A stretch of 64,000 nucleotides of DNA, from NCBI RefSeq assembly GCF_013122565.1, contig NZ_CP053258.1; one strand, 5' to 3'. This stretch comes from Escherichia coli (GTDB lineage: Bacteria; Pseudomonadota; Gammaproteobacteria; Enterobacterales; Enterobacteriaceae). Each line of letters starts with the position of its first letter. Position 1 is the first letter of the stretch. Below, in pieces: positions 33,001 to 34,227 of this stretch. The position numbers were made by a program.

Positions 33001-34227
33001 TTCGTCTGGTTCGCCAAATGTCACCAGCCGGTCATTGGCCGCAATACCACTTTCAGCAAGAGCATCGTAATACCCTTGCAGACGATCTTCGGCGTCAGAA
33101 ATAGAGTGGTTAGAGCACAGATAACCAATGCGGGTATGACCTTGCTGAATTAAATGACGCGTAGCCAGCCAGGCACCGTAACGATCGTCCAGAGCAATAC
33201 AACGGTTTTCAAAGCCAGGCAGGATACGGTTGATCAGCACCATACCGGGCATTTGTTTCATTAATGAGGCTAAATCGGCATCTGGGATCATTTTGGCATG
33301 GACGACCAACGCAGCACAGCGATGGCGGATCAGTTGCTCAATAGCCTGACGCTCTTTTTGTTCGTTGTGGTAACCGTTGCCAATCAATAAGAAATTACCG
33401 GTGTGATAAGCCACCTGTTCGACCGCTTTCACCATTGCACCGAAAAACGGATCGGAAACATCACCAACAACCAGACCGACCGTTTCAGTGGTCTGCTGCG
33501 CCAGCGCACGGGCGTTGGCGTTCGGGTGATAGCTAAGAGACTCCATTGCACTATGCACAGCCAGCCGGGACGCTTCGCTGGCTTTGGGTGAATTATTAAT
33601 GACGCGGGAAACGGTGGCGACTGAAACGCCTGCCAGTCGGGCTACATCCTTTATGGTCGCCATGAAAATACCTTAGTGGGTAAACGCTTACATTCTTTCA
33701 GTGTTACGGAAAACGCCCGTTGGTTCAAGGGGTGGCGTGTTTTCATCGTGGGAATGTGAGCCAAACGCAAATAAGTAAGACAAAAAAAGAGATTGCAAAC
33801 CTTTGGTTACACTTTGCGAAACGCTGTTGCGATTGACCGCTGGTGGCGTTTGGCTTCAGGTTGCTAAAGTGGTGATCCCAGAGGTATTGATAGGTGAAGT
33901 CAACTTCGGGTTGAGCACATGAATTACACCAGCCTGCGCAGATGCGCAGGTTTTTTTTTGCCGGTCATCAATCTGTAACAGTAACCGACAATTTACACAC
34001 CTCGTTGCATTTCCCTTCATTCCTTTGCGTTTTCTCGCTGGCGAAGAGTCGTCGTGCAGACCACAATCAAGATCCCAGAGGTATTGATTGGTGAGATTAT
34101 TCGGTACGCTCTTCGTACCCTGTCTCTTGCACCAACCTGCGCGGATGCGCAGGTTTTTTTTCGCACCTAATTTACTGTCGCTCGCGTTCTTTATCTCGTG
34201 TAATCTCCCTCCATTCGCTTTTACTGA

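What the first reader, a model, noticed from the sequence alone, without database searches (positions are those of the whole stretch)
33877..34161. Tandem OmrB/OmrA sRNA pair between galR and aas
Two about 85-nt elements share their first 21 nt (CCCAGAGGTATTGAT[A/T]GGTGA) and their terminator hairpin, but differ in the middle. They match the known OmrA/OmrB sRNAs that repress outer-membrane protein mRNAs. This is known biology but is not captured by the ORF track, which instead places a spurious ORF across omrA.
Basis: established knowledge. Interest (0 to 1): 0.2.

Follow-up and report, generated by a model that had tools for sequence, protein, structure and literature searches.

The report
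Known OmrB/OmrA small RNA pair
These are the two well-studied E. coli regulatory small RNAs OmrB and OmrA, sitting side by side between galR and aas exactly as in the K-12 reference strain, so the finding is correct but ordinary.

Summary
The observation and the interpretation both hold. Window 33877-33958 (+) is omrB (82 nt) and 34074-34161 (+) is omrA (88 nt).

- **Family match:** both match Rfam RF00079 (OmrA-B) end to end, at 86.1 and 96.6 bits against a gathering score of 40.
- **Identity to K-12:** both are 100% identical to the omrB (b4445) and omrA (b4444) genes annotated in E. coli K-12 MG1655. The whole 585-bp galR-aas intergenic region matches K-12 except for one extra T in the omrB terminator T-run.
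- **Distribution:** the locus is in 5423 of 5426 complete E. coli genomes. In the loci fetched from other Enterobacterales I found 46 more RF00079 matches, mostly tandem pairs. Their terminator stems show compensatory changes at 3 of 7 pairs and no broken pair.
- **Overlapping ORFs:** the ORFs across omrA (for example 34088-34324, 78 aa, TTG start) have no Pfam match and are not annotated in either reference.
- **Mechanism (from published K-12 work):** these are Hfq-dependent sRNAs activated by EnvZ-OmpR. Their shared 5' end pairs near the start codons of mRNAs for outer-membrane proteins and regulators, including ompR itself, and represses them.

This is already known and of low interest.

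The parts
32632..33663 (-). galR (LacI-family repressor), the upstream flanking gene, transcribed divergently from omrB
   Evidence: 343-aa ORF. Pfam LacI and Peripla_BP domains. Annotated galR in TUM13936 and K-12 at the equivalent position.
33757..33876 (+). omrB promoter region (-120 to -1). The candidate -10 hexamer TAAAGT lies at 33865-33870 (-12 to -7).
   Evidence: Sequence is identical to K-12. In K-12, the region -114 to +50 drives OmpR-P-activated transcription in vitro (PMC5175337). The consensus sigma-70 scan found no site, as expected for an activator-dependent promoter. The -10 assignment is my reading of the sequence.
33877..33958 (+). omrB sRNA gene, 82 nt
   Evidence: RF00079 at 86.1 bits, full-length match. 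100% identical to K-12 b4445.
33877..33897 (+). OmrB 5' target-pairing region, the 21 nt shared with OmrA
   Evidence: 20 of 21 identical to OmrA. The first 15 nt are left unpaired by the Rfam consensus structure; in my OmrB fold only nt 1-6 are unpaired. Mutations here abolish regulation of all tested targets in K-12 (PMC2588501).
33931..33959 (+). omrB intrinsic terminator: 9-bp stem, AGAT loop and a run of 9 T (K-12 has 8)
   Evidence: Terminator scan, fold, single-T difference from K-12, compensatory changes across genera.
33960..34073 (+). omrA promoter region, the spacer between the two genes. The candidate -10 hexamer CACAAT lies at 34062-34067 (-12 to -7).
   Evidence: Identical to K-12. 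omrA is an independent transcription unit activated by OmpR-P in vitro (PMC5175337; PMC13425233). A motif TTGCG-N7-CGCTGG is shared with the omrB promoter at nearly the same distance from the start: -50 to -34 for omrB and -49 to -33 for omrA.
34074..34161 (+). omrA sRNA gene, 88 nt
   Evidence: RF00079 at 96.6 bits, full-length match. 100% identical to K-12 b4444.
34074..34094 (+). OmrA 5' target-pairing region
   Evidence: PMC2588501.
34134..34161 (+). omrA intrinsic terminator: 9-bp stem, GGAT loop and T-run
34088..34324 (+). Mechanical 78-aa TTG ORF across omrA and into aas. I judge it spurious.
   Evidence: Listed. No Pfam match. Out of frame with aas. Not annotated in K-12 or TUM13936.
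34249..36408 (+). aas (acyltransferase / acyl-ACP synthetase), the downstream flanking gene
   Evidence: 719-aa ORF. Pfam Acyltransferase and AMP-binding domains. Annotated aas in the references.

Best explanation
The region holds the paralogous small-RNA genes omrB (33877-33958) and omrA (34074-34161) of Escherichia coli. Each has its own promoter and its own Rho-independent terminator, and they lie in tandem between galR and aas. [quoted passage not shown] The RNAs bind Hfq. Their nearly identical, largely single-stranded 5' ends pair over short stretches near the translation initiation regions of target mRNAs: ompT, cirA, fecA, fepA, ompR-envZ, csgD, flhDC, dgcM and flgM. Pairing blocks translation and triggers RNase E-dependent decay. 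Repression of ompR closes a negative feedback loop on the sRNAs' own synthesis. The divergent centres give each paralogue specific functions; for example, the OmrA centre pairs with btuB. What is shown here is the sequence identity, the family membership, the structure and the synteny. The regulatory mechanism is transferred from experiments on identical K-12 sequences.
For: Two full-length RF00079 matches at 86.1 and 96.6 bits against a gathering score of 40, the only Rfam matches in the 64-kb window. Both genes are 100% identical to K-12 omrB and omrA, and the 585-bp intergenic region is identical apart from one T. The gene order lysA-galR-omrB-omrA-aas-lplT is the same. The locus is present in 5423 of 5426 complete E. 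coli genomes. Both RNAs fold with a terminal GC-rich hairpin followed by a U-run; the first 15 nt of OmrA and the first 6 nt of OmrB are unpaired, and the z-scores are -2.9 and -2.7. There are 46 further RF00079 matches in Citrobacter, Enterobacter, Kosakonia, Serratia, Edwardsiella, Pantoea, Dickeya, Erwinia and others, mostly as tandem pairs about 190-275 nt apart. In the 48-sequence alignment (44 distinct rows), the terminator stem is 100% paired with compensatory changes at 3 of 7 pairs, while slid controls give no compensatory pairs. The window's 5' 21-mers are predicted to pair with ACCUUUGGG just upstream of the K-12 ompR start codon. The duplex energies are -19.0 and -16.9 kcal/mol, better than 99.4% and 97.2% of shuffled seeds, at the site validated by compensatory mutation in PMC2588501. 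Literature on regulation and targets: PMC2588501, PMC5175337, PMC13425233, PMC12692685.
Against: Nothing in the sequence argues against it. There are three limits. Expression, Hfq binding and target repression were not and cannot be measured here. The targets of this particular strain lie outside the window, so the pairing check used the K-12 ompR sequence. The invariance of nt 1-15 in my cross-species set follows from the search pattern I used and is not independent evidence; nt 17-20 and the 3' end were not constrained by the pattern.
Confidence: 0.98

Rival explanations
1. One or both elements are translated. On this reading the ORFs overlapping omrA (34088-34324 +, 78 aa; 34017-34166 -, 49 aa) or omrB (33856-34020 -, 54 aa) encode small proteins, and the RNA similarity is secondary.
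For: The ORFs exist mechanically.
Against: None has a Pfam match. No CDS is annotated there in K-12 or TUM13936. The 78-aa ORF starts with TTG inside the sRNA and overlaps aas out of frame. Conservation is highest at the 5' 21 nt and the terminator and lowest in the centre, with length differences between genera that are not multiples of 3. That is the pattern of an RNA, not of a coding frame.
Confidence: 0.01
2. The elements are only repeated intrinsic terminators or intergenic repeat units, remnants of a duplication, with no trans-acting function in this strain.
For: The most similar parts include the terminator hairpins. Sub-threshold Rfam matches to terminator-containing leader families appear at the same places, for example Leu_leader at 27.8 and 23.2 bits against a gathering score of 50.
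Against: The full-length covariance-model matches are far above threshold and include the non-terminator 5' part. The sequences are identical to experimentally characterised K-12 genes, promoters included. Neither hairpin can be the terminator of galR or aas: galR lies on the opposite strand and is transcribed away from the region, and both hairpins lie upstream of aas.
Confidence: 0.01

Closest known systems
OmrA (b4444) and OmrB (b4445) of Escherichia coli K-12 MG1655; Rfam RF00079 (OmrA-B)
   Same: Nucleotide-identical transcribed sequences (88 and 82 nt), identical promoters and spacer, and the same neighbours, aas and galR.
   Different: One extra T in the T-run after the omrB terminator: 9 T at 33951-33959 against 8 in K-12. 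It lies at or after the annotated 3' end, and no functional consequence is shown.
Omr loci of other Enterobacterales: tandem pairs in Citrobacter, Enterobacter, Kosakonia, Pluralibacter, Serratia grimesii and Edwardsiella; only one copy found in the fetched loci of Dickeya, Erwinia, Shimwellia, Siccibacter and Lelliottia
   Same: The 5' end, the GGUG...CACC helix, and the terminator with its U-run. Tandem same-strand arrangement with 188-275 nt between starts.
   Different: The central regions diverge and the terminator stems carry compensatory substitutions. Some genera have a single or chimeric copy (PMC13425233). In Pantoea the two copies lie about 2 kb apart with a penicillin-binding-protein gene between them.
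Other tandem sibling sRNAs, e.g. PrrF1/PrrF2 of Pseudomonas aeruginosa (from my own knowledge, not tested here)
   Same: Adjacent duplicated Hfq-dependent sRNA genes with shared seeds, partly redundant targets and separate promoters.
   Different: Unrelated sequences, a different regulator (Fur) and a different regulon. This is an analogy only, not homology.

Membership tests
Rfam RF00079 OmrA-B | Covariance-model score at or above the curated gathering score of 40 bits, over the full model | tested here: met
   86.1 bits (33877-33958) and 96.6 bits (34074-34161), model positions 1-87 of 87, not truncated.
Rfam RF00079 OmrA-B | Conserved 5' end CCCAGAGGUAUUGAU(N)GGUGA, the target-pairing region | tested here: met
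   Exact in both copies and identical to K-12. Positions 17-20 are invariant in 48 sequences. Invariance of 1-15 in that set follows from the search pattern.
Rfam RF00079 OmrA-B | 3' Rho-independent terminator hairpin followed by a U-run (the Hfq-binding type of 3' end) | tested here: met
   Terminator scan and MFE folds. The stem is 100% paired across 44 distinct sequences, with compensatory changes at 3 of 7 pairs.
E. coli omrA/omrB locus | [quoted passage not shown] | tested here: met
   described in PMC13425233 and PMC12692685.
E. coli omrA/omrB locus | Lengths of 88 nt (OmrA) and 82 nt (OmrB), diverging after nt 21 with distinct central regions | tested here: met
   lengths as stated in PMC12692685.
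E. coli omrA/omrB locus | Separate promoters activated by OmpR-P | not testable with these tools
   The promoter DNA is identical to K-12, where OmpR-P activates both in vitro (PMC5175337). Activity in this strain was not measured.
Hfq-dependent trans-acting sRNA | Hfq binding and base-pairing repression of target mRNAs | not testable with these tools
   In silico only. The 5' end is predicted to pair with ACCUUUGGG upstream of the K-12 ompR AUG, better than 97-99% of shuffled seeds. Experimental proof exists for the identical K-12 RNAs (PMC2588501).

The most novel reading that the evidence does not exclude
The only sequence difference from K-12 in the whole intergenic region is a ninth T in the omrB terminator T-run. 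The most novel reading not excluded is that this allele changes OmrB 3'-end length, and with it termination efficiency or Hfq affinity, shifting the OmrA/OmrB balance in this lineage. No evidence here supports an effect.
Probability: 0.03. Interest if true: 0.15.

Novelty: already known. Interest (0 to 1): 0.05.

Why it matters
It matters only as an annotation point. These two sRNA genes are real, universally present in E. coli, and functionally important: they feed back on EnvZ-OmpR and control outer-membrane receptors, curli, motility and c-di-GMP signalling. ORF-based tracks do not show them, and the RefSeq PGAP annotation of the closest matching genome leaves them out. A pipeline that sees only ORFs would mislabel the region. 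No new biology is implied.

Tried and rejected
- **Consensus sigma-70 promoter scan of 33600-34300:** no site found. I do not read this as absence of promoters, because both are activator-dependent (OmpR) and identical to the characterised K-12 promoters.
- **Permissive Rfam scan of 33500-34400:** besides RF00079, it gave only sub-threshold matches: Leu_leader at 27.8 and 23.2 bits against 50, TeloSII_ncR49 at 24.5 against 55, and SgrS at 15.2 against 37. I rejected these as terminator-driven or chance.
- **Coding reading of the overlapping ORFs:** rejected.
- **Exact 15-mer scan of genome contigs:** I used only the enterobacterial loci confirmed by Rfam. The set is therefore a sample, not a census, and it is biased toward copies with a perfect seed.
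- **10-nt perfect inverted repeat flanking the omrB promoter (33759-33768 / 33846-33855):** I considered it a possible regulatory structure. Roughly 0.2 such pairs are expected by chance in 600 nt (my estimate), so I did not pursue it.

Full report
**1. Observation**

The + strand of the window carries two elements, at 33877-33958 (82 nt) and 34074-34161 (88 nt).
- They begin with CCCAGAGGTATTGATAGGTGA and CCCAGAGGTATTGATTGGTGA, which is 20 of 21 identical.
- With up to three mismatches allowed, this 21-mer occurs exactly twice in 64 kb, against none in 100 shuffles.
- Their 3' parts form a 38-nt direct repeat, 89% identical, that contains a 9-bp GC-rich hairpin with a 4-nt loop and a T-run.
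- The centres are unrelated in sequence.

The description is accurate at the stated coordinates.

**2. Identity**

A gathering-threshold Rfam scan of the whole window gave only two matches. Both are to RF00079 (OmrA-B), both cover the full model, and they score 86.1 and 96.6 bits against a gathering score of 40. No tRNA was found in the window.

I fetched the annotated K-12 MG1655 record. It lists lplT, aas, omrA (b4444, 88 nt), omrB (b4445, 82 nt), galR and lysA in that order.
- The window elements are 100% identical to K-12 omrB and omrA respectively.
- The whole 585-bp galR-aas intergenic region is identical to K-12 except for one additional T in the T-run after the omrB terminator.
- The flanking ORFs carry the expected Pfam domains: LacI and periplasmic-binding domains for galR, Acyltransferase and AMP-binding domains for aas.
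- The region is present in 5423 of 5426 complete E. coli genomes at 95% identity or more.

**3. Structure and comparative evidence**

Both RNAs fold with a terminal hairpin plus a U-tail. The 5' end is single-stranded for 15 nt in OmrA and for 6 nt in the minimum-free-energy fold of OmrB. The z-scores are -2.9 and -2.7.

It also returned enterobacterial loci, in which Rfam confirmed 46 further OmrA-B matches.
- Most of these loci have two same-strand copies, 188-275 nt apart. They come from Escherichia albertii, Citrobacter, Enterobacter, Kosakonia, Pluralibacter, Serratia grimesii and Edwardsiella.
- Some have only one copy in the fetched locus: Dickeya, Erwinia, Shimwellia, Siccibacter and Lelliottia.

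In the 48-sequence alignment, the GGUG...CACC helix and the terminator are conserved while the centre is variable in sequence and length. The 7-bp terminator core is paired in 100% of cells, with compensatory double changes at 3 of 7 pairs. Partner-slid controls give none. Invariance of nt 1-15 in this set follows from the search pattern and is not counted as evidence.

**4. Overlapping ORFs**

Mechanical ORFs cross omrA: 34088-34324 (+, 78 aa, TTG), 34017-34166 (-, 49 aa) and 34054-34170 (+, 38 aa). One crosses omrB: 33856-34020 (-, 54 aa).
- The four I tested, including the three named above of 49 aa or more, have no Pfam match.
- None is annotated as a CDS in K-12 or TUM13936.
- The 78-aa ORF enters aas out of frame.
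- OmrA-type copies differ between genera by lengths that are not multiples of three.

I could not see the ORF track itself.

**5. Mechanism**

The steps shown here are sequence identity, family membership, terminator structure, synteny, and a predicted duplex. The window's 5' 21-mers are predicted to pair with ACCUUUGGG just upstream of the K-12 ompR start codon. The energies are -19.0 and -16.9 kcal/mol, better than 99.4% and 97.2% of shuffled seeds.

The steps taken from the literature on the identical K-12 RNAs are these:
- OmrA and OmrB pair through their conserved 5' end with ompT, cirA and ompR near the translation initiation region. Regulation depends on Hfq and RNase E. A 5'-end mutation abolishes control of all tested targets, and compensatory mutations restore it (PMC2588501).
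- OmpR-P activates both promoters in vitro, and repression of ompR gives feedback control (PMC5175337).
- OmrA also responds to RpoS and pairs with btuB through its specific centre. OmrB is specifically activated by RstA in multicopy. The two genes are independent transcription units whose arrangement is conserved in Enterobacteriaceae (PMC13425233).
- A review gives the 88 and 82 nt lengths, the divergence after nt 21 and the origin by duplication (PMC12692685).

The following points are inferred:
- The -10 hexamers are TAAAGT (33865-33870) and CACAAT (34062-34067), each at -12 to -7.
- A motif TTGCG-N7-CGCTGG is shared at -50 to -34 (omrB) and -49 to -33 (omrA). It could be a remnant of the duplicated promoter.
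- The consensus sigma-70 scan found nothing, which fits activator-dependent promoters.

**6. Comparison, novelty and verdict**

This is not merely like OmrA/OmrB; it is omrB and omrA. Every defining sequence feature was tested and met. Only expression, Hfq binding and target repression remain untested in this strain.

The finding is already known. Its only value is as an annotation note: the RefSeq PGAP annotation of the closest genome omits both genes. Interest is 0.05.

Noticed in passing
window 33951-33959: The T-run after the omrB terminator has 9 T where K-12 MG1655 has 8. This is the only difference in the whole 585-bp galR-aas intergenic region. Strains TUM13936 and TB06051 match the 901-bp query (window 33600-34500, which includes this T-run) at 100%.
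   Followed up: partly
window 1-~20000: The left part of the window aligns at 98% with a TUM13936 region annotated as a type III secretion gene cluster (sctC, sctN, EscV/R/S/T/U, PrgH/EprH, ygeH, ygeG and others). From my own knowledge this looks like the ETT2 island. The reference marks two of its genes as pseudogenes: a partial SpaN/EivJ and a frameshifted YscQ. I did not check whether the window's copies are intact.
   Followed up: no
window 62509-64000: Directly after amiC, the window departs from TUM13936, which has three tRNA-Met genes there (by my recollection K-12 has metZWV here). The window instead encodes a 293-aa protein annotated in other strains as a PRD-domain protein, followed by a PTS EIIC gene. 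1688 of 5426 genomes cover at least 80% of this stretch, so it is an accessory insertion. ARAGORN finds no tRNA anywhere in the window.
   Followed up: partly
L002 (NZ_CP134358.1) 3065-3649, equivalent to window 33664-34248: The RefSeq PGAP annotation of the strain identical over this region lists no feature between galR and aas. omrA and omrB are therefore missing from routine annotation even though K-12's curated record has them.
   Followed up: yes
L032 2747-4879 (Pantoea stewartii); L061 647-2770 (Pantoea sp.): In Pantoea the two RF00079 copies are about 2 kb apart, not about 200 nt. In L032 the gap holds a 579-aa ORF with PBP_dimer and Transpeptidase domains (a class B penicillin-binding protein). 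In both loci the upstream copy is short (76 nt) and lacks the central hairpin. In L032 the upstream neighbour is a molybdopterin oxidoreductase rather than galR, and the downstream copy still precedes aas.
   Followed up: partly
window 33600-34500 as query against E. coli genomes: Two of the 5428 matching places are on plasmids, and 3 of 5426 genomes have no match. I did not examine either.
   Followed up: no
window 33759-33768 and 33846-33855: A perfect 10-nt inverted repeat (AGCCAAACGC / GCGTTTGGCT) brackets the omrB promoter, at about -118 to -109 and -31 to -22. It could be chance; I estimate about 0.2 such pairs in 600 nt.
   Followed up: no
window 33827-33843 and 34025-34041: Both promoters share TTGCG-N7-CGCTGG at almost the same distance from the transcription start: -50 to -34 for omrB and -49 to -33 for omrA. 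It may be a relic of the duplication or a common regulator site. I did not compare it with the conserved boxes described in PMC13425233.
   Followed up: no
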